Assembly (NCBI GenBank): GCA_009392915.1
Contig: CP045477.1
Coordinates: forward strand, 352,001 to 416,000
Source: Candidatus Forterrea multitransposorum CG_2015-17_Forterrea_25_41
GTDB lineage: Archaea > Iainarchaeota > Iainarchaeia > Iainarchaeales > CSSED10-239
DNA: 64,000 nucleotides
Direction: 5' to 3'
Shown here: one piece after another, positions 25,026-64,000 of the stretch
Numbering within the stretch: position 1 is the first letter of the stretch
Layout of the letters: every line of letters starts with the position of its first letter
Program-made: the position numbers and the translations under genes
Notes under the pieces: generated by a model
Told to the model about the DNA's origin: nothing
What the model saw: the letters and a program-made list of their open reading frames with translations, nothing else
The model's database searches: none

Positions 25026-25098
25026 TGGACTCTGCGAGATTCGAACTCGCGGCCTCGTCCTTGCAAGGGACGCGCTCTACCAGCTGAGCTAAGAGCCC
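25026..25098 (-). tRNA. tRNA-Ala (TGC)
   Basis: Hand-folded. G3:U70 identity pair. Anticodon loop CTTGCAA. T-arm CGAGTTCGAATCTCG. No encoded CCA. Confidence 0.9.
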
Positions 25099-25300: not shown

Positions 25301-25364
25301 GTTAGGTAAGTTTTTAAAACTTTTAAAATAACAACTAACATTTAGTCATTATATAAAATAGGAG

Positions 25365-26854
25365 GTGATCCGTCCGCAGGTTCCCCTACGGACACCTTGT
25401 TACAACTTAGTCTACCTCGCGAAATATAGAATAACTTTATCCTTTAGTAGAGTAAAGTTCATCAACACTCCACTCGGTTGGCTTGATGGGCGGTGTGTGC
25501 AAGGCGCAGGGACATATTCACCGCGTGATAGTGACACGCGATTACTGGGGATTCCAGCTTCATGAGGGTGAGTTGCAACCCTCAATCCGGACTTAGACTA
25601 AGTTTTTGAGATTGCCACCCCTTTTCAGGTTAGATACTCTTTGTCTTAGCCATTGTATGCCGCGTGTTGCCCAGAACATTCACGCTATACAGACCTACCT
25701 TCGCCCACTCCTTCCTCATTGTTACCAATGCAGTCCTATTAGAGTGCCTTCTTTTGCAAGCAAAAAAAGTAGCAACTAATAGCATGGGTCTCGCCCGTTA
25801 CCTGAGTTAACAGGAAGCTTCACAGTACGAGCTGACGATGGCCATACAGCAGTTCTCAGCGCATCAGGTAACCCCTTCAGAGTGACCATCATATTGCTGT
25901 CAGCCCTGGTAAAATATCTGGCGTTTCATCCAATTAAACCGCAGCATCCACCCCTTGTAGTGCACCCCCGCCAATTCCATTAAGTTTCAGTCTTGCGACC
26001 ATACTTCCCAGGCGGTGAATTTAATGGTTTCCCTTCGGCCCTGAGCTAACTCGTAGTTAACCCAACACCTAATTCACATCGTTTACGGCTGGGACTAACC
26101 GGGTATCTAATCCGGGTTGCGCCCCCAGCTTTCGTATCTCACTGTCGAATCCGTACTCGTTAAGCGCCTTCGCCACAGGTGGTCTTTTTAGTATCTTAAG
26201 ATTCTACTCCTACTCTAAAAATACCCTTAACGTCTTCCGGTTCCTAGTCATGCCAGTATCTTTTGCAATTCAACTAGTTAGGCTAGCTGCTTTCACAAAA
26301 GACTTAACAAACCAGCTACACACGCTTTAAGCCAAATAATGCTGGATACCACTTGGGGATTACGTATTACCGCGGCGGCTGGCACGCATATTGCCCTCCC
26401 CTTATTCACATAGTTATTCACACTATATAAAAGCTTACATAGTAAGCACTTGGAATCTCTTTATCACGATTTCTCGCATTGTAAAAGTTTCGTAACTGCT
26501 GCACCCCGTAGGGCTAGGGACATTATCTCAGTTCCCTTCTCCGGGCTACCTCTCTCAAGGCCCGTACAGATCTTCGGCTTGGTAGGCAGTTACCCTACCA
26601 ACAACCTAATCTGGCGCAGTCCCATCCTTTCGCGCCAAAGAAGCATGATTCTTTGACCTTTAAAATAGTAATCATTCCAGATTTACTTTTTTATAGAGCA
26701 TTATACTCAGTTTCCCGAGTTTAACTCTTCAAAAGGGTAGGTTGACCACGTGTTACTGAGCCGTTCGCCAAAACCTCTCATAGCTGAGGCTTTAAGACTT
26801 GCATGTCTTAGTCAGATTCCAATAGCAGTATCCACCAGCAGGATCAGCTGGAAT
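25365..26854 (-). rRNA. 16S rRNA (archaeal)
   Basis: 5' ATTCCAGCTGATCCTGCTGG... and 3' ...GTAACAAGGTGTCCGTAGGGGAACCTGCGGACGGATCACCTCCT read on the minus strand. Universal segments (GTGCCAGCCGCCGCGGTAA etc.) present. About 1490 nt. Confidence 0.9.
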
Positions 26855-27818: not shown

Positions 27819-27892
27819 TGCTCTCGCCGGGATTCGAACCCGAGTCTCTGGCTTGAAAGGCCAGAATGATTACCGGACTACACCACAAGAGC
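27819..27892 (-). tRNA. tRNA-Glu (TTC)
   Basis: Hand-folded. Acceptor GCTCTTG/CGAGAGC. Anticodon stem-loop CTGGC-CTTTCAA-GCCAG. T-arm TCGGGTTCGAATCCCGG. Confidence 0.9.
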
Positions 27893-30188: not shown

Positions 30189-30260
30189 GCACTCGTAGTA
30201 TAGTGGTTAGTATGTGAGCCTTCCAAGCTTAGGACTCGGGTTCGAATCCCGACGAGTGCA
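30189..30260 (+). tRNA. tRNA-Gly (TCC)
   Basis: Hand-folded. Acceptor GCACTCG/CGAGTGC. Anticodon stem-loop TGAGC-CTTCCAA-GCTTA. T-arm TCGGGTTCGAATCCCGA. A TATA-like TTTTTATC sits at about -25. Confidence 0.85.
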
Positions 30261-51791: not shown

Positions 51792-52295
51792 TTAGAAGGG
51801 TTTATAAAGGTTACCGATATATTGGTAATATTGGTAGTATATAAACTTAACCAATATAGCTATTAACCAATACTTCTTTTTATACTCTCTAGCATCAATT
51901 CTTTCTTTTAATTTTATTCTTTCTTCTACAAGTTCTTGTTTTCTTGTCTGAATTGCAAAATAACTTTGAGCAAATGCAATTTCTTCTTTTCTTGAGTCTC
52001 CATTTTGTGCTATTAAGTAACATGCATATCTAGTTAATGTATAATCAATTATTTCTCTTTCTGCATCAGATCCTAATTTAACCTTTTTCCTGACCTCAAG
52101 AAAATGGTCATTAATATTAAATCCTGAATTTTTACAAGAAATTTTTGCTTTTTCAATTATACTTACAAAATTTTCCCATTTAGTATAACCTAAAAGGTCT
52201 TGTAACTCCCTTGCAAGCCAAAATTCAAGATTATCTTTAAAATAAGCACTATCTTGAAAACTTTTAGTTAGTTTATAAATTATTTCTCTTTGCAT
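51792..52295 (-). CDS. DinD-like (DNA-damage-inducible protein D / BRO-N-like) protein
   Basis: The N-terminal half is collinear with E. coli DinD: FWLARELQDLLGYTKWENF...NDHF...GSDAEREIIDYTLTRYACYLIAQNGD...YFAIQTRKQEL. Confidence 0.65.
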   Translation of the reverse strand: MQREIIYKLTKSFQDSAYFKDNLEFWLARELQDLLGYTKWENFVSIIEKAKISCKNSGFNINDHFLEVRKKVKLGSDAEREIIDYTLTRYACYLIAQNGDSRKEEIAFAQSYFAIQTRKQELVEERIKLKERIDAREYKKKYWLIAILVKFIYYQYYQYIGNLYKPF

Positions 52296-52346
52296 AGAAC
52301 ATCACATATATATAAGAGTCTTTAATTTATATATTGATTTTGTAAG

Positions 52347-52367
52347 AGAGGGTAAATGGCCGAGAAA
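52347..52367 (+). repeat. 21-bp direct repeat AGAGGGTAAATGGCCGAGAAA (copy 2)
   Basis: Exact match to 48811-48831. Confidence 0.6.
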
Positions 52368-52382
52368 GAGAAGAATAGAATT

Positions 52383-52934
52383 TTATTTTAATAAAGCATA
52401 AAGATAATTATCATATACTTTACCATTATAGATAGCTGATTTTTTTAAAAGCCCTTCTTTTTTAAATTTACTTTTTTCTAAAACTTTAATAGAGCCTATA
52501 TTTTTAGTACAAACTTCAGCTGCTATTCTTTTAATACAGGTATTTTTAAATAAAAAATGAATATATGCTTTTATAGCTTCAGACATAAATCCTTTATTCC
52601 AATAAGAAGAATGAAGCATAAAACCTAAATCACATCTTTTAAAATCTTTAATAATTGTAAAAATATCAATAGAGCCTATTAATTTATTTTCATAAGTTAT
52701 AAAAAAAGAAGCTCCTTTTCTTTTTTTCCAAGCATCTACTTTTCTTAAAATTTGTTTTTCTACAATCTTTCTTGAGTTTTTATTATCTCCAGAACCATTA
52801 TATATCCAGAGATTTTTATCTTCATATAACTTATAAAGTTCTTCTTTATATTTTATATCTGGTTTTATAAGTAATAATCTTTTTGTCTTTACTGGCTTAT
52901 ACTTATAACCTTTGTTAAATATTTTTTCATCCAT
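52383..52934 (-). CDS. GNAT acetyltransferase (RimJ/RimL-like)
   Basis: Motif A region and the C-terminal ...KVLEKSKFKKEGLLKKSAIYNGKVYDNYLYAL typical of the RimL family. Confidence 0.7.
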   Translation of the reverse strand: MDEKIFNKGYKYKPVKTKRLLLIKPDIKYKEELYKLYEDKNLWIYNGSGDNKNSRKIVEKQILRKVDAWKKRKGASFFITYENKLIGSIDIFTIIKDFKRCDLGFMLHSSYWNKGFMSEAIKAYIHFLFKNTCIKRIAAEVCTKNIGSIKVLEKSKFKKEGLLKKSAIYNGKVYDNYLYALLK

Positions 52935-53619
52935 GGTTTAACCTTTTATATTCTTTAATTGCTTTATTAAGTACATTTAAAAAATTAGGATCTTTTTTCC
53001 ATTCTTCTAAAATAAATACTCTTAATTTAGAATGTTTAGAATAACCATCATCTTTAATTTCTATTAAATCTTTAAATTCCTCATTAATTATTACTGTAAA
53101 AGATTCTTTAATATCATGAATTTCAGATTCAGATAAATTACTTTCTTTACAAACGTTCCAAAAATAACTATGAAAGAATAAATGCATAAGCTCATGAATT
53201 ACAACTCTAAATAAATATTTATCCACATATTCGATATAAATGAATATTCCAAACCACTTTTGGTTTTTTCTAAATTCATAAGGACAAGCAACAAAAGTAT
53301 TATATTTAATATATACTTTATTAACAGGAAATTTATTTTTGTGAATCTTTTCTAATTTATTTATTATCTCATCCTTATATTTATTCAATTTTAGATTAGA
53401 ATTATAAAAATTAGTTAAATACTTTTTAGAATAAAATTTTTTAGTGTATTTATCTATTAACTCAACTTTTTTAGAATCAGATGCACTTATTAAAGAATTT
53501 TTAAAATCCTCAGGATAATCTTTAAACCAATCATTACCATAAGCACTAGAGTTTTTAATAAATTTAAGCCAATTTTTTAAATTTTCTTCTTTTGATACAA
53601 TAAATTCTATTTCAACCAT
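52927..53619 (-). CDS. putative HExxH zinc-metallopeptidase-like protein
   Basis: VVIHELMHLFFH motif; otherwise unassigned. Confidence 0.4.
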   Translation of the reverse strand: MVEIEFIVSKEENLKNWLKFIKNSSAYGNDWFKDYPEDFKNSLISASDSKKVELIDKYTKKFYSKKYLTNFYNSNLKLNKYKDEIINKLEKIHKNKFPVNKVYIKYNTFVACPYEFRKNQKWFGIFIYIEYVDKYLFRVVIHELMHLFFHSYFWNVCKESNLSESEIHDIKESFTVIINEEFKDLIEIKDDGYSKHSKLRVFILEEWKKDPNFLNVLNKAIKEYKRLNHG

Positions 53620-53627
53620 AATAAATC

Positions 53628-54008
53628 TTAAATTTCAATTATGTATTCTTTTAAAACTTTTGTACCCCATATTCTAAACTGAGTTGCTTTAGATGAATTT
53701 ACTCTATATCCTACTGATATTATTGCATCTAAATTATAAAAATCAACATTTCTTTTAACATCTCTAGTTCCTTCTTTTTGAACTATTAGGAATTTCCTAA
53801 TAGTTTGATTTTTATTTAACTCTGCAGAATCATATATATTTTTTAGATGTTCATTTATAGTTGGGATTTCAACTCCAAATAATTCTGCAATCCTTTTCTT
53901 AGTTAACCATATATTTTCATTATAAATATAAACATCTAATTTTACTTCTCCATCTGGAGATTTATACAATAAAAATTTATTATTTTTAGAAATGATCTCT
54001 TTAGTCAT
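53628..54008 (-). CDS. RhuM-family (virulence/phage-associated) protein, N-terminal domain only
   Basis: NLDAIISVGYRVNSSKATQFRIWGTKVLKEYI is the hallmark RhuM segment. The gene is about one third the usual length. Confidence 0.6.
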   Translation of the reverse strand: MTKEIISKNNKFLLYKSPDGEVKLDVYIYNENIWLTKKRIAELFGVEIPTINEHLKNIYDSAELNKNQTIRKFLIVQKEGTRDVKRNVDFYNLDAIISVGYRVNSSKATQFRIWGTKVLKEYIIEI

Positions 54009-54361: not shown

Positions 54362-54817
54362 ATGGATATAGAAAAATTACCTTTTAGAAAAGAAGTTACA
54401 GCATATATTGTAAATGAAAATAAAGAATTTATAGTTATCTTTTCAGCACTTGCAAACAGGTTTTGTAAAACTCCTGCTGGAGGTGTTGAAGAAAATGAGC
54501 CTTCAGATAAAGCAATATTAAGAGAAATTAAAGAAGAACTTAATCTTGATATAGAAATTATTGCAAAATCAAAGATAGAATACAAATGGGAACATACAAA
54601 AGAAAGAATAATTGAAAGAAACTTAAAATTTAGAGGATCAACTGGAGAAGTTTTTCTTGCAAAAATAAACCCACCAAATCAAGAGATTAAAATACAAGAA
54701 GAAGAAATCTCAGGGTATAAATGGATTAAAAAAGAAGATGTAGATAATTATTTTGCAACAGACACTTTAAAAGAAACAGCAAGAAAGATGTTTGAAGAGT
54801 TTAAAGAATATTTTTAA
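54362..54817 (+). CDS. Nudix hydrolase
   Basis: Nudix box GGVEENEPSDKAILREIKEELNL. Confidence 0.7.
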   Translation: MDIEKLPFRKEVTAYIVNENKEFIVIFSALANRFCKTPAGGVEENEPSDKAILREIKEELNLDIEIIAKSKIEYKWEHTKERIIERNLKFRGSTGEVFLAKINPPNQEIKIQEEEISGYKWIKKEDVDNYFATDTLKETARKMFEEFKEYF

Positions 54818-55406
54818 AAAAATGATATTATTTATGAAAATAAGAAAAATAAAATTAAGAGAGCTAAAAGAAGCAGATATTTTTAAAGAAAAAATATTAA
54901 ACCCAGAAAAAAAAAGAAGATATAGACCATATTATAAAATTTTAAAAAATTACAAAAGAGAGCCTTCTTTATTTATTGGAGCTTATGATAAAAATAGAAT
55001 TATAGGAGTTGCTTTTGGGCATATTATAAAAAATAGAATATTATTAGGTGAAATGGCTGTTTTAGAAGAGTATAGAAACAAAGGGATTGGAAAAAAAATA
55101 TTAAAAAAAATTGAACAAAATTCAAAAAAATTAAATAAGAAATATATAGAGCTTGGTGCTCTTGATAATGCAGAAAAATTTTATCTTAAACAAAATTACA
55201 AACCAATTATTTTTGTGCAAATATATCCAAAAAATATCTTGAAAAATTACAATCATTTAAATTATAAAATAATTAAAGAAACAAATTATGTTGATTCTAA
55301 AAGATTTTATATTGAGGTTAAAAGATATGATCCTAAATTAAAAGAAAAAATAGAAAAAGAATTTAAAGCATATGATGTAATCTATTTATTTAGAAAATAT
55401 TTATAA
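54792..55406 (+). CDS. GNAT-family N-acetyltransferase
   Basis: Motif A VLEEYRNKGIGKKIL. Confidence 0.6.
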   Translation: MKSLKNIFKKMILFMKIRKIKLRELKEADIFKEKILNPEKKRRYRPYYKILKNYKREPSLFIGAYDKNRIIGVAFGHIIKNRILLGEMAVLEEYRNKGIGKKILKKIEQNSKKLNKKYIELGALDNAEKFYLKQNYKPIIFVQIYPKNILKNYNHLNYKIIKETNYVDSKRFYIEVKRYDPKLKEKIEKEFKAYDVIYLFRKYL

Positions 55407-58566: not shown

Positions 58567-59220
58567 TTAAGTATAAATTATTTTACTTTTTATAAATTTA
58601 ATTTCAAGTTTTTCTGTGCATTTAATTTTAATTATTATATTTGCACTTTTTGAAAAATTATCTGCAAAAATATTTATGTTTGAACTAATTTTATATATTT
58701 TATTTTTTTCAAATTTAATTTTAGGAAATCCAATAGGTATTTGTTTAATCATAGGTAAAATATTTCCATTTATATTTACACTTCCTTCAAAAAAATTAAA
58801 TAAATCTAAATAATGCAATTCATTTTTAGATAAATTAAAATTTTCTTTACCTTCAGAACATTTACCTTTATGAGTTGCACTCCAGACAAAATAATTAGGA
58901 TCAAAAGGATATATTTTTTTATTATTCAATTTTATTTCATTACATTTAATTTTAATATTGTTTATTGCTATTGAACCTATATTTATTACTTTTATTCTAA
59001 AATAAATTAAATTACAACTTGAACCATCATGTTGATTAATATAAATTTTATTAATCTTATGAACACAGTTAACATCATCTAAATCAATTTTAATTTTTGG
59101 TTTTTTAATAAAATTAATAATATCTTCTTTAAATAATGCAACAACTACTGCACATAGAGTTAAAAAAGCCATAATTATTTGAATAATTGAATCTAAATTA
59201 TTTTCAACCATCAATACCAT
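58567..59220 (-). CDS. single-pass membrane protein of unknown function, translationally coupled to hsdR (17-nt overlap)
   Basis: N-terminal TM IIQIIMAFLTLCAVVVALF; no motifs. Confidence 0.45.
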   Translation of the reverse strand: MVLMVENNLDSIIQIIMAFLTLCAVVVALFKEDIINFIKKPKIKIDLDDVNCVHKINKIYINQHDGSSCNLIYFRIKVINIGSIAINNIKIKCNEIKLNNKKIYPFDPNYFVWSATHKGKCSEGKENFNLSKNELHYLDLFNFFEGSVNINGNILPMIKQIPIGFPKIKFEKNKIYKISSNINIFADNFSKSANIIIKIKCTEKLEIKFIKSKIIYT

Positions 59221-62200
59221 CTCTACAAATTCTTTCTGCTTGTTCTAAAACCAATTTTACTGCTTCTGCTTGCATATCAGGAGGATAACCATACTTTGAA
59301 AGAATTCTCTTAACCAAAACTCTTATCTTTGCTCTTTCAGTTTCTCTAATTTCCCAATCAACGCTTGTTGTATTCTTTTTAATAGTATCTGTTAAAATTT
59401 TTGCAATAACAACTATTTGTTTATCCCCTAAAACATCTAAAGCACTTTTATTATTTGAAAGAGCATCATAAAAAGCAACTTCATCTTCGGATAAATCAAG
59501 TTCTTCACCTTTCTTTTCAGAAGCTTTAATTTCTTTTGCAATTTTTAATAGTTCTTCAATAACTTCAACAGTTGTTATACTTCTATTAGTATATAATTTA
59601 ATAATATTTTCAATCATTTCCTTAAAAGATCTTTGTTTTACAATATTTTTTCTAAATCTGGATTTAATTTCATCATTAAGAAGTTTTCTATACATCTCTA
59701 ATGCTAAATTCTTTTGAGGTAAATTTTTAATTTCAAGCATAAATTCTTCAGAAAGTATAGAAATATCTGGTCTTTTAAGTCCTGCAACTTTTAAAACATC
59801 CATAATTCCAGAAGACATTATTGATTTTGAAATTAATTGATTTAAATTTTGTTCTAAAAGCTCAGTTTGAGAAATATTTCTAGTAACAGTATTTTTTACA
59901 AACTGTGATTTAATTGCTTGGAAAAATGCAATTTCTTCTTTTAAATCTAAAGCTCTTTTATCAGGAACTGCTAAAGAGAATGCTCTTAAAAGATTAATAG
60001 TTGCATCAATAAATCTTTTTTTACCATCTTCTTGTTTTAATATATGTTCCATTGCATTAATTAAAAGCTTCATTCTATAATTTGTGTCTTTATTTTCTAA
60101 ATCATATTCAAACTTATATAATAAAGATTTAACAACATCATATTTATTTAATAATAAATTTACTGCTTCTTCTTGATTAATTCCAACCTTTTGTTGATCT
60201 TTTGGAGAATAATTACCTAAGGCTTCTTTTAATTGAGTAAGTATACTTATATAATCTACAATTAATCCACCTTGTTTTTCTCCAAAAACTCTATTTACTC
60301 TTGCAATTGCTTGCATTAAATTATGGTCTTTCATTGGTTTATCAATATACATTGTATGAAGAGAAGGAACATCAAAACCAGTAAGCCACATATCTCTTAC
60401 AATTACAAGTTTAATCTCTGAAGAAGGATCTTTAAAAACATCTCCAATTTCTCTTCTTTTTTCTGAATTTCTAATATGTCTTTGCCAGTCTAAAGGGTCA
60501 GTTGCGTTACCAGTCATTATTACCTTTAAAAATCCTTTTTTATCATCTTCGTTATCCCACTCTGGTTTAATTTTTATTATTTCATTATATAAATCTACAC
60601 ATATTCTTCTAGACATACAAACAATAATACCTTTTCCTGGCATTCCTAGTTGTCTTTCTTGGAAATGATTTATTATATCTTTTGCAATTTCTTTAATTCT
60701 TTCAGGATGACCTATTATTTTTTCAATTCTTGCCCATTTACTTTTTAATTGTTCTTTTGTATCTTTTTCTTCAGTTTCTGTTACATATTCAAAATCTTTA
60801 TCTAAAGTTATTTGAGATTCTGGATTTAAAGATATTTTTGCAAGTCTACTTTCATAGTAAATAGGAACTGTCATTTTATCTTCAACAGCTTTACTGATAT
60901 CATAAACATCTACATTTTCTCCAAATACATTTCTTGTACTTTTATCACTTTTTTCAATTGGAGTTCCTGTAAAACCAATATAGGTTGCATTTGGAAGAGC
61001 ATCTCTTAGGTTTTTTGCAAAACCTTCTAAAAAACCATATTGTGATCTATGTGCTTCATCAACAATAACAACTATATTTTCTCTATTTGATAGTTCTGGA
61101 TAAACTTCTCCTTTATTTTCTGATGAAAATTTTTGAATTGTTGAAAAAATAACTCCTCCAGAAGATACTTGTAATAGTCTTTTAATTTCTTCTCTATCTT
61201 CTGCTTGTTTTGGATCTTGTCTTAAAACATCTTTACATTTTGAAAATGTTGTGAAAAGTTGATCATCTAGTTCGTTTCTATCTGTTAAAACTAATAAAGT
61301 TGGATTGTTTAGTTGTTGTATAACTTTTCCTGAATAGAAAAGCATGGTTAATGATTTTCCTGAACCTTGAGTATGCCAAACAACACCTGCTCTTTTATCT
61401 TTTCCTTTAACAGCTTTAATTGTTGAAGATACTGCATTGTTTGTTGCATTATATTGATGATATGCTGCTATTTTTTTAATAGTTTTATCTTTATCTGCTT
61501 CATAGACTATAAAATTGTTTATTAAGTCTAATAATGTTTCTTTATTTAACATTCCTCTTATTAAAACTTCTAATTGTGTTAAATAAGAGGCTTGATCTTT
61601 ATATATTGTTTTCCAGATCATGAATCTATCTAGATTTGAAGAAATTGTTCCAACTCTTGTGTCTGTTCCGTCTGAAATTACTAAAATTTGATTATAGTTA
61701 AAGATTGTTGGAATTTCTTGTTTGTATGTTTGTAATTGGTTGTATGCTTTTTTAATATCTGCATTTTCATCTGTTGGATTTTTTAATTCTATTAAAACAA
61801 CTGGTATTCCATTTATAAATAAAATAATGTCTGGTCTTCTGGTATGTTCAGTTTCTTTAATTGTAAATTGGTTTAATGCTATAAATTCATTATTGTTTAT
61901 GTTATCTTTGTCTATTAAGTTTATTTTTATCCATTTTAGGTTTCCATTTATTCTTGTTTGAACGGTTATTCCTTCTGTTAGATATTTGTAAATTTGTTTG
62001 TTGTTTTCTATTAGTTTTTGTGATTCTATTCTTTGTAGTTTTTTAATAGCTTCTTGTTTTGCATCTTCAGGAAGATTTGGGTTTATATCACTTATTTTTC
62101 TTTTTAAAGTTTCATTTAAGAGCACTTGTGAGAAATCATCTCTTTCTGGTCTTTGGCTATCTGGAGCTATGTCTACTCCATTAAGTTTAGTGTAACCTAT

Positions 62201-62260
62201 TTCTTCAAACCAAGAAAGTGCTTGGTTTTCCACATCTCCTTCTCTTAAAAATGATGTCAT
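59204..62260 (-). CDS. hsdR: Type I restriction enzyme R subunit
   Basis: HsdR N-terminal nuclease region, SF2 helicase motifs (TGSGKS-like HTQGSGKS, DEAH-like VDEAHRSQ) and a long C-terminal helical domain; 1018 aa. Confidence 0.85.
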   Translation of the reverse strand: MTSFLREGDVENQALSWFEEIGYTKLNGVDIAPDSQRPERDDFSQVLLNETLKRKISDINPNLPEDAKQEAIKKLQRIESQKLIENNKQIYKYLTEGITVQTRINGNLKWIKINLIDKDNINNNEFIALNQFTIKETEHTRRPDIILFINGIPVVLIELKNPTDENADIKKAYNQLQTYKQEIPTIFNYNQILVISDGTDTRVGTISSNLDRFMIWKTIYKDQASYLTQLEVLIRGMLNKETLLDLINNFIVYEADKDKTIKKIAAYHQYNATNNAVSSTIKAVKGKDKRAGVVWHTQGSGKSLTMLFYSGKVIQQLNNPTLLVLTDRNELDDQLFTTFSKCKDVLRQDPKQAEDREEIKRLLQVSSGGVIFSTIQKFSSENKGEVYPELSNRENIVVIVDEAHRSQYGFLEGFAKNLRDALPNATYIGFTGTPIEKSDKSTRNVFGENVDVYDISKAVEDKMTVPIYYESRLAKISLNPESQITLDKDFEYVTETEEKDTKEQLKSKWARIEKIIGHPERIKEIAKDIINHFQERQLGMPGKGIIVCMSRRICVDLYNEIIKIKPEWDNEDDKKGFLKVIMTGNATDPLDWQRHIRNSEKRREIGDVFKDPSSEIKLVIVRDMWLTGFDVPSLHTMYIDKPMKDHNLMQAIARVNRVFGEKQGGLIVDYISILTQLKEALGNYSPKDQQKVGINQEEAVNLLLNKYDVVKSLLYKFEYDLENKDTNYRMKLLINAMEHILKQEDGKKRFIDATINLLRAFSLAVPDKRALDLKEEIAFFQAIKSQFVKNTVTRNISQTELLEQNLNQLISKSIMSSGIMDVLKVAGLKRPDISILSEEFMLEIKNLPQKNLALEMYRKLLNDEIKSRFRKNIVKQRSFKEMIENIIKLYTNRSITTVEVIEELLKIAKEIKASEKKGEELDLSEDEVAFYDALSNNKSALDVLGDKQIVVIAKILTDTIKKNTTSVDWEIRETERAKIRVLVKRILSKYGYPPDMQAEAVKLVLEQAERICRDGIDG

Positions 62261-64000
62261 AATTTATCACAATTATTATTTTTAATAAAAACATATAATC
62301 TTTTTATTAATTCTTGAGTAATATTTGGTAAATCATTAAATTTTATTTCTTTATCAGTCATATATTTAATTGATTTTTTTGAAAATTCTAATTTAGAATT
62401 TATTTTTTTATATTTATTTGTATCTTGAATTGAATTAAATAAACTTGAATCTATTTTGTTATCTACAAATATATTTTGCCCTAATTCATCAGGAGTAAAA
62501 ACTTTATCTTTAAAACTAAAAATGTCATTAAAAATTTCACAAGGCAACAAATATTCTATTTCTTTATGATATGCCCAAAAATTAGAAGGTAAATTTTCAG
62601 ATAATATTTTTAATCTATTTCCTTTAATATTAATTTTTGGTTCAATAACATCATTTTCTGAATCTATAGATAAATATTTTTTACCAGTTAAAGGGTTATA
62701 ACCATCATTATCAGCAATAATAAAATTATTTTTATTAATTGCATCTACAGTAATTTTTAAATTATCTTCAATATCTAAAAAGTTAAAATGAACAATATTG
62801 CCTCCACCATATTCAATAAAAGAATAGTGTTTATCTTCATTAAATTTAATTAAACTTGAATCTGAATCAAAATATAATTCCAAATATTTTTTAATATATA
62901 GTCTATCAGATATCCCTTCTACCCAAATAATACAATTAGATAAAAATACAGATGAGTTACGTACTTCGAGTAAATCTAAAATATCCTTATTTTGAGTAGT
63001 ATTTTTAATTACAAAATTACTATTGTTTTTTTCAAATGAATAAATAGATTTATTATTATAATCAAGTGTAATATCTAAAAGATGATTGGAATGTGTAGTT
63101 ATAAATATTTGTGCATTTTTTGCAAATTCACTATTATATACTTCTAATAATTTTCTTTGCATCCCTGGATGTAATGTTAATTCTGGTTCTTCAATAAATA
63201 TTAATAAATTTTCATTAAAATATTTAAATAATGGAAAAGTACATATCATAATAGTCTGTAATCCATCTCCAAGTTCATAAATAGGTCTTTCAACATCATC
63301 AATTTGTATATACAGTACATCAGAATTAATATTAGGAATTAAATTTATGTGCCTATCATTAAAAAAAGATTTACTTAGAAAATCTTCATAATTTTTTATT
63401 AAATTTCTTTCTTTTTGACTTCCTAATAGCATTTTTTTAATATCCTCATATAAAGATAATCCTGTAAATATAAAACAATTGGGATATTTTGTATTAAAAT
63501 CAATAATATATTTATCAGAGTGATTTTCATTAAAATAATCGTATTTTGTTCTATCTTGATAACAATCAAAATCATTAAATAAAAAAGATTCACTAATTAA
63601 TTTTGATTTTTCATCAGAAGAATCATTTCTAATTATTGGTCTAAGACCTCTTAACATAGGAATATATAAATAAGTATATTTTTGATCTAATCCAACTGTT
63701 AGTTCATCTTTAGTTTTAATAAATTTATCTATAAATAGAGCTAATTCATTTGTTTTAATATTACCATTATAAGTAGTGACATCTCCATTAGTTGAAGTCT
63801 TTATATTTGTTTTAATTTCGTCGTGAAATTTTAAAGAAATAGACAGGTCAGAAACATATTCTATATCTTTATATTTTAAAGGAATATTTAACACTTCAGT
63901 ATTAGGTAATTTATCTATATTAGGATATTTTCTAATTAATTCTTTAGAAATATTTTCATACATATTATATACTTCTAAGGTTTTTACTGTATTATAAGTA
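62257..64000 (-). CDS. OLD-family-like ABC ATPase + TOPRIM nuclease protein, N-terminally truncated by the window edge
   Basis: Signature/Walker B/H-loop block YELGDGLQ...LLIFIEEPELTLHP...IFITTHS, then a TOPRIM-like IIWVEGISDRLYI. No Walker A within the window. The reading frame stays open from the M at 63963 to position 64000. 4-bp overlap with hsdR. Confidence 0.5.
   Translation of the reverse strand, partial: TYNTVKTLEVYNMYENISKELIRKYPNIDKLPNTEVLNIPLKYKDIEYVSDLSISLKFHDEIKTNIKTSTNGDVTTYNGNIKTNELALFIDKFIKTKDELTVGLDQKYTYLYIPMLRGLRPIIRNDSSDEKSKLISESFLFNDFDCYQDRTKYDYFNENHSDKYIIDFNTKYPNCFIFTGLSLYEDIKKMLLGSQKERNLIKNYEDFLSKSFFNDRHINLIPNINSDVLYIQIDDVERPIYELGDGLQTIMICTFPLFKYFNENLLIFIEEPELTLHPGMQRKLLEVYNSEFAKNAQIFITTHSNHLLDITLDYNNKSIYSFEKNNSNFVIKNTTQNKDILDLLEVRNSSVFLSNCIIWVEGISDRLYIKKYLELYFDSDSSLIKFNEDKHYSFIEYGGGNIVHFNFLDIEDNLKITVDAINKNNFIIADNDGYNPLTGKKYLSIDSENDVIEPKINIKGNRLKILSENLPSNFWAYHKEIEYLLPCEIFNDIFSFKDKVFTPDELGQNIFVDNKIDSSLFNSIQDTNKYKKINSKLEFSKKSIKYMTDKEIKFNDLPNITQELIKRLYVFIKNNNCDKL

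What the first reader, a model, noticed from the sequence alone, without database searches (positions are those of the whole stretch)
62257..64000. OLD-family-like ATPase-TOPRIM gene overlapping the start of hsdR
The upstream gene carries the AAA_21-type signature/Walker B/H-loop block and a TOPRIM-like VEG..D motif. It overlaps hsdR by 4 bp, which implies co-translation. OLD-family nucleases are known with UvrD/GajB helicases or alone. A tight coupling to a Type I R subunit is not an arrangement I can name as described. No hsdM/hsdS lie downstream within the window. They may be upstream beyond the edge.
Basis: partly seen in the sequence, partly recalled or inferred. Interest (0 to 1): 0.6.

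Follow-up and report, generated by a model that had tools for sequence, protein, structure and literature searches.

The report
OLD-type nuclease inside Type I restriction operon
An archaeal Type I restriction-modification operon carries a stand-alone OLD-type ATPase-nuclease defence gene in a slot between hsdS and hsdR that holds different genes in related operons, which is an ordinary case of one defence gene embedded in another system rather than a new OLD-HsdR machine.

Summary
On the minus strand, an ORF cut by the window edge (62257..>64000) encodes an ABC-type ATPase fused to a Toprim nuclease. Its TGA overlaps the ATG of a 1018-aa hsdR (59204..62260) as ATGA.

I recovered the source contig (663 kb, archaeal). 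The full protein is 627 aa and has a Walker A motif. It lies in one compact operon: hsdM, two small membrane proteins, PIN_12, hsdS, OLD-like, hsdR, 217-aa ORF. So hsdM and hsdS are just upstream of the window edge.

The protein belongs to a large family (more than 3,500 homologues). All OLD catalytic positions are invariant, and the closest solved structures are OLD proteins.

The adjacency to hsdR is not conserved:
- Only 2 of 80 genome loci have hsdR within 10 kb, and none of 18 viral loci.
- None of five close metagenomic relatives is next to hsd genes.
- No neighbouring gene recurs.
- In the three closest Type I operons (HsdR 91, 76 and 61% identical), the hsdS-hsdR slot holds three unrelated genes.

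The gene is therefore swappable defence cargo. This "embedding" is already described (PrrC, Rlo genes, TgvAB, Payne et al. 2024). It is a new member of a known kind, of low to moderate interest.

The parts
62257..64000 (-). OLD-family-like ABC ATPase-Toprim gene. The window holds codons 48-627 plus the stop. The true start is 140 nt beyond the window edge (equivalent to position 64140), and the full protein is 627 aa.
63256..63273 (-). ABC signature-like motif LGDGLQ (aa 290-295; Q295 invariant in the family)
63169..63207 (-). Walker B / D-loop LLIFIEEPELTLH (aa 312-324; E318, P319 and H324 invariant)
63082..63099 (-). H-loop TTHSNH (aa 348-353; H350-H353 invariant)
62905..62925 (-). Toprim glutamate motif WVEGISD. 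E408 is the metal A ligand. D412 sits at the position of BpOLD E404 (metal B).
62701..62715 (-). Toprim DxD motif ADNDG (D477 invariant, D479 in at least 90% of sequences)
62554..62562 (-). E527-I-E529 at the start of the C-terminal helical domain. It corresponds in position to BpOLD T506/E508 (metal B); the spacing from DxD is 48 residues against 49.
62392..62394 (-). Invariant K583 in the helical domain. It corresponds in position to BpOLD K562; the spacing from ExE is 54 residues against 54.
62257..62260 (-). ATGA overlap: stop of the OLD-like gene and start of hsdR
59204..62260 (-). hsdR, Type I restriction subunit (1018 aa; HSDR_N, SWI2_SNF2, T1R_D3-like, T1RH-like_C)
58567..59220 (-). 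Last gene of the operon, a 217-aa ORF with an N-terminal hydrophobic helix and no family match. It overlaps the hsdR 3' end by 17 nt.

Best explanation
The gene encodes a self-contained, single-protein OLD-family (Class-1-type) defence nuclease. It has an N-terminal ABC ATPase that acts as sensor or regulator, and a C-terminal Toprim plus helical domain that cleaves nucleic acid by two-metal catalysis.

It sits as exchangeable cargo in a variable slot between hsdS and hsdR of a complete archaeal Type I R-M operon (hsdM, 163-aa ORF, 160-aa ORF, PIN_12, hsdS, OLD-like, hsdR, 217-aa ORF). It is co-transcribed and probably translationally coupled with the hsd genes, so the cell expresses two independent defence layers together. 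The Type I enzyme restricts unmodified DNA. The OLD-type nuclease is inferred to be switched on by an infection cue through its ATPase, and then to nick or degrade DNA and stop viral replication.

Shown here: gene identity, intact motifs, operon layout, non-conservation of the adjacency, and the variable slot. Inferred: co-transcription, nuclease activity, the trigger and the defence role.
For: Identity:
- AAA_15 4.5e-17 and AAA_21 5e-16 across aa 5-356.
- PADLOC GajA, Old, AriA and AbiLi models at 1e-13 to 1e-18, with GajA models covering aa 313-485 including the Toprim.
- Best solved-structure sequence match is Thermus scotoductus Class 1 OLD, 6P74, 3e-12.
- The AF2 model has pLDDT 82.7. Its top Foldseek full-length hits are all OLD proteins: retron-Eco8 OLD 9e-11, GajA 1e-7, TsOLD 2e-7.
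- The C-terminal 233 aa modelled alone (pLDDT 82, pTM 0.82) hits the Xcc and Bp OLD C-terminal regions as the top four of 350,542 chains, with probability 0.97-1.0 and TM 0.43-0.50.
- Across 68 homologues these are invariant: K35/S36, Q295, E318, H350-H353, E408, D412, D477, E527, E529, K583. Their spacing matches the BpOLD catalytic set E400/E404/D455/D457/T506/E508/K562.

Stand-alone nature:
- No recurrent neighbour in 80 species-level loci.
- About 18 full-length relatives on viral or prophage contigs.
- The closest relative (56% identity) sits in a different defence island with UvrD-PDDEXK, GmrSD and SLFN helicase genes.

Cargo slot:
- Operons with HsdR 91, 76 and 61% identical and HsdM 80-93% identical carry unrelated 187-, 422- and 292-aa genes between hsdS and hsdR. 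They also carry differing gene sets between hsdM and hsdS.

Operon:
- All junctions overlap or are separated by 2 nt, and GC3 is uniform at 6-13%.

Literature:
- Embedding in Type I R-M is common, and ABC ATPase-Toprim cargo has been validated as defence (HEC-04).
- Class 1 OLD proteins defend on their own (Vc OLD).
Against: - No experiment exists: nuclease activity, trigger and substrate (DNA or RNA) are all inferred.
- Pfam OLD-like_TOPRIM is below its gathering score (17.4 against 23.2 bits).
- The domain-level fold match is specific in rank but modest in score (TM 0.43-0.50, E at or above 6e-3).
- An archaeal OLD class (Cran1) has a non-defence, cell-cycle role, so an OLD fold does not guarantee defence.
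- Archaeal promoters could not be scanned, so a single transcript is inferred from gene overlaps only.
- Independence from HsdR is argued from non-conservation, not shown.
Confidence: 0.72

Rival explanations
1. Guard of the restriction system (an anti-anti-restriction module). The OLD-like protein is functionally tied to the Type I enzyme it is embedded in. It stays latent while the enzyme works and is activated when a virus inhibits it, for example with a DNA mimic. This is how PrrC behaves with EcoprrI and Stp, and how PARIS AriA behaves with Ocr.
For: - The gene is embedded and overlaps both hsdS and hsdR.
- The ATPase scores among its best PADLOC hits on AriA models, 5.5e-18.
- PARIS senses the Type I inhibitor Ocr through its ABC ATPase.
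- PrrC is almost exclusively embedded in Type I R-M. Payne et al. report that Ocr activates PARIS and Gabija and that Stp activates PARIS and PrrC.
- A second embedded instance exists in Pontibacter oryzae.
Against: - 78 of 80 genome loci, 18 of 18 viral loci and 5 of 5 close relatives have no hsdR nearby. The family therefore does not depend on a Type I partner.
- The same slot holds unrelated genes in sister operons.
- Sensing a diffusible anti-restriction protein would not need genetic linkage, so linkage is weak evidence either way.
Confidence: 0.15
2. Physical accessory subunit of the Type I enzyme. Translational coupling delivers the OLD-like protein into a complex with HsdR, adding a second nuclease or ATPase to the restriction motor.
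For: The 4-nt ATGA overlap with hsdR and the 1-nt overlap with hsdS.
Against: - Such overlaps occur at every junction of this operon, including those with unrelated cargo.
- The adjacency is not conserved in the family.
- Orthologous HsdR proteins (61-91% identity) work in operons without it.
- This HsdR has a complete standard domain set, including its own HSDR_N nuclease domain.
Confidence: 0.04
3. Non-defence housekeeping OLD ATPase, comparable to the archaeal Class 5 protein Cran1 that acts in cell-cycle and chromatin processes. On this reading its position in the operon is incidental.
For: The host is an archaeon. Cran1 shows that an OLD-family protein in archaea can be essential and not antiviral.
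Against: - Cran1-type proteins are a clade conserved across Sulfolobales, and they have an alpha-helical insertion in the Toprim domain.
- This family is patchily distributed over Bacteroidota, Bacillota, CPR, methanogens and DPANN, and also occurs on viral contigs. That pattern is typical of mobile defence genes.
- Here it lies inside an R-M operon with PIN_12 cargo.
- The closest relative lies in a defence island.
Confidence: 0.05

Closest known systems
Class 1 OLD family nucleases (P2 Old, Thermus scotoductus OLD 6P74, Vibrio cholerae Vc OLD)
   Same: - Single polypeptide: an ABC ATPase with an inserted helical region, then a Toprim and a helical domain.
- Invariant E, D, DxD, ExE and K catalytic positions with BpOLD-like spacing.
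- No conserved partner gene, variable neighbourhoods, and members on phages or prophages.
- TsOLD is the best solved-structure sequence match, 3e-12.
   Different: - Only about 12-17% identity to solved OLD proteins.
- Pfam OLD-like_TOPRIM is below threshold.
- About 100 aa longer than TsOLD (627 against 528 aa), with 69 residues between the Toprim Glu and DxD, against 55 in BpOLD.
- In this genome it is embedded in an operon rather than isolated.
- Activity and trigger are untested.
Defence genes embedded in Type I R-M operons: PrrC/RloC, C. jejuni rloA/rloB, V. cholerae TgvAB, and the HEC/PDC candidates of Payne et al. 2024 (including the ABC ATPase-Toprim fusion HEC-04)
   Same: An unrelated defence gene inserted between hsd genes and co-oriented with them. 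ABC ATPase plus Toprim chemistry recurs among such cargo.
   Different: - HEC-04 was defined from Hma systems and is not among this protein's 25 best PADLOC matches.
- RloA/RloB, AbiL and PARIS split the ATPase and Toprim into two proteins.
- PrrC is nearly always embedded, whereas this family rarely is (1 of 80).
Gabija GajA (Class 2 OLD) and PARIS AriA/AriB (Class 4 OLD)
   Same: Same ATPase-Toprim module. GajA and AriA models are among the best PADLOC hits, 3e-17 and 5e-18. GajA and AriB appear among the fold matches.
   Different: - No GajB/UvrD-like helicase is adjacent here or in relatives.
- The ATPase and Toprim are fused, unlike in most PARIS systems.
- None of the matches reaches full model coverage.

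Membership tests
OLD family nucleases (general) | N-terminal ABC-type ATPase with Walker A, signature/Q, Walker B and H-loop motifs | tested here: met
OLD family nucleases (general) | C-terminal Toprim domain with an invariant Glu and a DxD motif | tested here: met
   E408 (WVEGISD) and D477-N-D479 are invariant or nearly so. Pfam OLD-like_TOPRIM scores only 0.006, below gathering, but GajA models cover aa 313-485 at 3e-17.
OLD family nucleases (general) | Second metal site and catalytic Lys contributed by a C-terminal helical domain (BpOLD E404, T506, E508, K562) | tested here: inconclusive
   Invariant D412, E527, E529 and K583 occur at matching spacings, 48 against 49 and 54 against 54 residues. 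The correspondence rests on spacing and a modest fold match (TM 0.43-0.50 to 6njv and 6nk8), not on a residue-level superposition.
OLD family nucleases (general) | Overall fold similar to solved OLD proteins | tested here: met
   Top Foldseek PDB hits for the full model are retron-Eco8 OLD, GajA and TsOLD, E 9e-11 to 4e-7. For the C-terminal domain alone, the top four hits are OLD C-terminal regions. Global TM scores are low (0.21-0.28), which is expected for multi-domain proteins.
Class 1 OLD | Stand-alone gene with no conserved partner (no UvrD/GajB helicase, retron RT or separate AriB) | tested here: met
   80 genome loci show no recurrent neighbour. No helicase or RT flanks the gene here. 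In this genome, however, the gene is inside an R-M operon.
Class 1 OLD | Metal-dependent nuclease or nickase and ATPase activity; anti-phage or RecBCD-linked phenotype | not testable with these tools
   Requires biochemistry and genetics.
Gabija (Class 2 OLD, GajA) | Adjacent GajB UvrD-like helicase | tested here: not met
   The neighbours are hsdS and hsdR. No UvrD-like gene lies within 10 kb on L001, and none recurs in relatives.
PARIS (Class 4 OLD, AriA/AriB) | ABC ATPase AriA plus a DUF4435-type Toprim AriB, usually as separate genes | tested here: inconclusive
   AriA models hit the ATPase only, 5.5e-18. The AriAB fusion model gives 2.5e-16 but covers only profile positions 232-450 of 694. 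AriB ranks 8th in the domain fold search at probability 0.16.
Type I R-M system (host operon) | hsdM, hsdS and hsdR present and co-oriented | tested here: met
   HsdM (HsdM_N + N6_Mtase 4e-111), HsdS (Methylase_S 4e-17) and HsdR (TIGR00348 1e-198) lie on one strand of L001.
Defence genes embedded in Type I R-M ('guilt by embedding') | A non-hsd gene located between hsd genes of one operon, with homologues that also occur outside such operons | tested here: met
   The gene lies between hsdS and hsdR. 78 of 80 homologue loci have no hsdR within 10 kb. Sister operons carry other cargo in the same slot.

The most novel reading that the evidence does not exclude
In this DPANN-like archaeon, the embedded OLD-type ATPase-nuclease acts as a guard of its host Type I enzyme. 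It would be triggered when a virus inhibits restriction, an archaeal single-protein analogue of PrrC or PARIS. More broadly, this archaeal Type I operon lineage would be a two-slot platform that collects and exchanges defence genes that are mostly still unknown: the 163-, 160-, 187-, 217-, 292-, 379- and 422-aa ORFs.
Probability: 0.12. Interest if true: 0.6.

Novelty: new member of a known kind. Interest (0 to 1): 0.27.

Why it matters
It adds a clear archaeal example, from an AT-rich, small-genome lineage, of layered immunity: a Class-1-type OLD nuclease riding inside a Type I R-M operon.

Comparing four orthologous operons pins down two junctions, hsdM|hsdS and hsdS|hsdR, where cargo is exchanged. 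That gives a short list of small uncharacterised ORFs as candidate archaeal defence genes.

It does not reveal a new kind of OLD-HsdR machine. The protein family (more than 3,500 members, none characterised) would be a reasonable target for anyone studying how stand-alone OLD nucleases are triggered.

Tried and rejected
- **Specific OLD-HsdR coupling.** I tested it by neighbourhood analysis of 80 species-level loci, 18 viral loci and 5 close metagenomic relatives. I rejected it because the adjacency is not conserved.
- **A conserved partner gene** (helicase, RT, HNH, PIN). All-against-all BLAST of immediate neighbours found none. A few loci have overlapping small genes, such as HNH_2 in L043, but they are unrelated to one another.
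- **Cargo in sister operons being divergent OLD or ATPase genes.** There is no BLAST similarity and no Pfam hit. The only PADLOC hits are weak: DUF3644 1.2e-4 and HEC-08 0.005 on the 187-aa ORF, and PtuB 0.005 on the 292-aa ORF.
- **Recent horizontal import of the OLD gene, judged by composition.** GC3 is uniformly 6-13% across the operon, so there is no signal.
- **NCBIfam.** It gave no meaningful match for the protein: MADS3, E 0.005, far below its cut-off.
- **Promoter and terminator scanning.** I skipped it because the tool covers sigma-70 signals only and the host is archaeal.
Full report
**What is in the window.** All relevant genes are on the minus strand. The ORF ending at 62257 stays open up to base 63999, so the window edge cuts it, and 580 codons are visible. 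Immediately downstream, 59204..62260 encodes a 1018-aa Type I restriction subunit: TIGR00348 hsdR 1e-198, with HSDR_N, SWI2_SNF2, T1R_D3-like and T1RH-like_C domains. The two ORFs share ATGA at 62257-62260. They are the LGDGLQ signature, the LLIFIEEPE Walker B, the TTHSNH H-loop and the WVEGISD Toprim Glu motif, plus an ADNDG DxD motif. Pfam gives AAA_21 and AAA_15 above threshold and OLD-like_TOPRIM at E 0.006, below threshold. PADLOC GajA, Old and AriA models match at 1e-9 to 1e-18.

**Recovering the missing context.** An exact-sequence look-up of HsdR found the source contig, JGI 3300007985 Ga0100381_1000002, 663,621 bp. The fetched locus L001 is identical to the window over all 14,797 shared bases. 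The full OLD-like protein is 627 aa and carries a Walker A motif, GGNNSGKS, at aa 29-36. It lies in one co-oriented string of genes:

- hsdM (505 aa)
- a 163-aa ORF with a hydrophobic N-terminus
- a 160-aa ORF with a hydrophobic N-terminus
- PIN_12 protein (323 aa)
- hsdS (430 aa)
- OLD-like (627 aa)
- hsdR (1018 aa)
- a 217-aa ORF

Every junction either overlaps by 1, 4 or 17 nt or is separated by 2 nt. GC3 is uniformly 6-13%. The ATGA overlap is the norm for this operon, not a special feature of the OLD/hsdR pair. The window also carries an archaeal SSU rRNA, so the host is an archaeon with 24% GC.

**What the protein is.** It belongs to a large family: more than 3,500 homologues at E below 1e-3 among the 8,000 candidates scored, typically 600-670 aa. 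Members occur in Bacteroidota, Bacillota, CPR bacteria, methanogens and DPANN archaea. In a 68-sequence alignment the following are invariant: Walker A K35/S36, Q295, Walker B E318, H350-H353, and the C-terminal residues E408, D412, D477, E527, E529 and K583. D479 is conserved in at least 90% of sequences.

Schiltz et al. 2019 define the catalytic set of Burkholderia pseudomallei OLD as metal A ligands E400/D455/D457, metal B ligands E404/T506/E508, and K562. The present family has chemically equivalent invariant residues in the same order. The spacings nearly match: DxD to ExE is 48 residues against 49, and ExE to Lys is 54 against 54.

I modelled the last 233 aa alone (pLDDT 82, pTM 0.82). 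That model retrieves the OLD C-terminal regions of Xanthomonas and Burkholderia as the top four of 350,542 chains, at probability 0.97-1.0. The scores are modest, with TM 0.43-0.50 and E at or above 6e-3. I therefore file the protein as an OLD-family ATPase-nuclease with intact catalytic residues. The residue-level equivalence of the second metal site remains unproven.

**Is the link to hsdR conserved?** No.

- I fetched 80 loci from different GTDB species with 10-kb flanks. I screened them with the window's HsdM, HsdS and HsdR by phmmer and again with profiles built from several Hsd proteins.
- Only two loci have hsdR nearby. In Pontibacter oryzae (L002) the homologue sits inside a decayed Type I locus with a split hsdM, no hsdS and a split hsdR. 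In Planococcus citreus (L007) a complete but divergently oriented EcoR124-type system is adjacent.
- Immediate neighbours in the 80 loci are unrelated to one another. The only similarity links are seven pairs, and no cluster has more than two members.
- The five closest metagenomic relatives with usable contigs are not next to hsd genes. The nearest (56% identity) lies in another defence island with UvrD-PDDEXK, GmrSD and SLFN-helicase genes. Others lie beside integrases or housekeeping genes.
- About 18 full-length relatives sit on IMG/VR viral or prophage contigs, none with hsd genes.

This pattern matches the definition of Class 1 OLD genes: stand-alone genes in variable neighbourhoods.

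**Is the slot variable?** Yes. The closest HsdR proteins (91, 76 and 61% identity) come from operons whose HsdM is 80-93% identical to this one. Their layouts are:

- L092: hsdM, 324-aa ORF, PIN, SLFN_AlbA_2, hsdS, 187-aa ORF, hsdR
- L093: hsdM, 379-aa ORF, PIN_12, hsdS, 422-aa ORF, hsdR
- L094: hsdM, DUF3800, 219-aa ORF, 159-aa ORF, hsdS, 292-aa ORF, hsdR

The four occupants of the hsdS-hsdR slot (OLD-like, 187, 422 and 292 aa) share no detectable similarity and mostly lack any family match. Some hsdM-hsdS cargo is shared: PIN_12 at 43% identity, and the 160/159-aa ORFs at 64%. Both junctions thus behave as cargo slots, and the OLD-like gene is one interchangeable occupant.

**Comparison with what is known.** Genes embedded in Type I R-M operons are well documented:

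- rloA/rloB lie inside the C. jejuni hsd locus, and RloB is a Toprim-superfamily domain linked to Type I R-M.
- TgvAB lies inside the V. cholerae VPI-2 Type I operon.
- Payne et al. 2024 showed that Type I R-M, BREX and DISARM systems frequently contain embedded genes. They report that PrrC is almost exclusively embedded, that many defence types are embedded only occasionally, and that ABC ATPase-Toprim cargo such as HEC-04 gives defence dependent on both active sites.

The arrangement seen here is an instance of that phenomenon. OLD classes are defined by genomic context: Class 1 alone, Class 2 with GajB, Class 3 in retrons, Class 4 PARIS, Class 5 Cran1. This family fits Class 1 by context, and its best solved-structure sequence match is the Class 1 protein TsOLD.

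**Mechanism.** The most likely reading has confidence about 0.7. The ATPase senses an infection-related cue and controls the Toprim/helical nuclease, which nicks or degrades nucleic acid by two-metal catalysis. This follows what is known for TsOLD, BpOLD and Vc OLD. Embedding gives co-expression and co-inheritance with the Type I system, so unmodified DNA and restriction-evading viruses are both covered.

A guard model is attractive by analogy with PrrC and PARIS. In it, the protein is activated when the Type I enzyme is inhibited. The distribution of the family does not support it, and I give it about 0.15. The accessory-subunit model and the housekeeping model are each unlikely, at 0.05 or less.

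**Verdict.** The proposed tight, novel OLD-HsdR coupling is not supported. This is a new member of a known kind. Interest is low to moderate, mainly as an archaeal example and as a pointer to a set of small unknown cargo genes in a variable Type I operon.

Noticed in passing
window 25360-26854 (-): A complete archaeal SSU rRNA gene (Rfam RF01959, 1354 bits), with tRNAs at 25026-25098, 27819-27892 and 30189-30260. The host is an AT-rich (24% GC) archaeon, and the source contig is 663 kb.
   Followed up: partly
window 58567-59220 (-): A 217-aa ORF with an N-terminal hydrophobic helix overlaps the hsdR 3' end by 17 nt and has no Pfam, NCBIfam or PADLOC match. In the sister operon L092 its homologue (82% identity over 49 aa) is only 65 aa long and lies 62 nt upstream of a Y1_Tnp transposase gene.
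   Followed up: partly
L001 4891-6832 (beyond the window edge, equivalent to window positions 65429-67370): Three further embedded genes lie between hsdM and hsdS: 163-aa and 160-aa ORFs with hydrophobic N-termini, and a PIN_12 protein (3e-11). The 160-aa ORF (64% identity in L094) and PIN_12 (43% identity in L093) recur in sister operons. They are candidate defence cargo of unknown function.
   Followed up: partly
L092 4733-5296; L093 5050-6318; L094 9081-9959: The same hsdS-hsdR slot in the three closest operons holds unrelated 187-, 422- and 292-aa ORFs with no Pfam match. The only PADLOC hits are weak: DUF3644 1.2e-4 and HEC-08 0.005 on the 187-aa ORF, and PtuB 0.005 on the 292-aa ORF.
   Followed up: partly
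window 51792-54008 (-): Downstream of the operon are a RhuM-like gene (53628-54008) and a Bro-N domain gene (51792-52295). Acetyltransferase genes (52383-52934 on the minus strand, 54792-55406 on the plus strand) and a NUDIX gene (54362-54817, plus strand) lie beside them. The region looks like a mobile or accessory island.
   Followed up: no
L021 3-3538 (Methanoculleus MAG): The start of the OLD homologue overlaps by 1 nt the stop of an Eco57I/TaqI_C/N6_Mtase (type IIG-like) gene. This is a second kind of association between the family and restriction-modification genes.
   Followed up: partly
L002 6584-14687 (Pontibacter oryzae): A decayed Type I locus (hsdM split in two ORFs, no hsdS, hsdR split and N-terminally truncated) still encloses the OLD homologue and a 574-aa ORF with no family match.
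   Followed up: partly
L043 11743-12516: An HNH_2 endonuclease gene overlaps the stop of the OLD homologue by 4 nt. It may be a lineage-specific two-gene variant.
   Followed up: no
L096-L112, L124 (IMG/VR contigs): About 18 full-length relatives (24-36% identity) lie on viral or prophage contigs, several of them near contig ends. This recalls P2 old, which sits at a phage accessory locus.
   Followed up: partly
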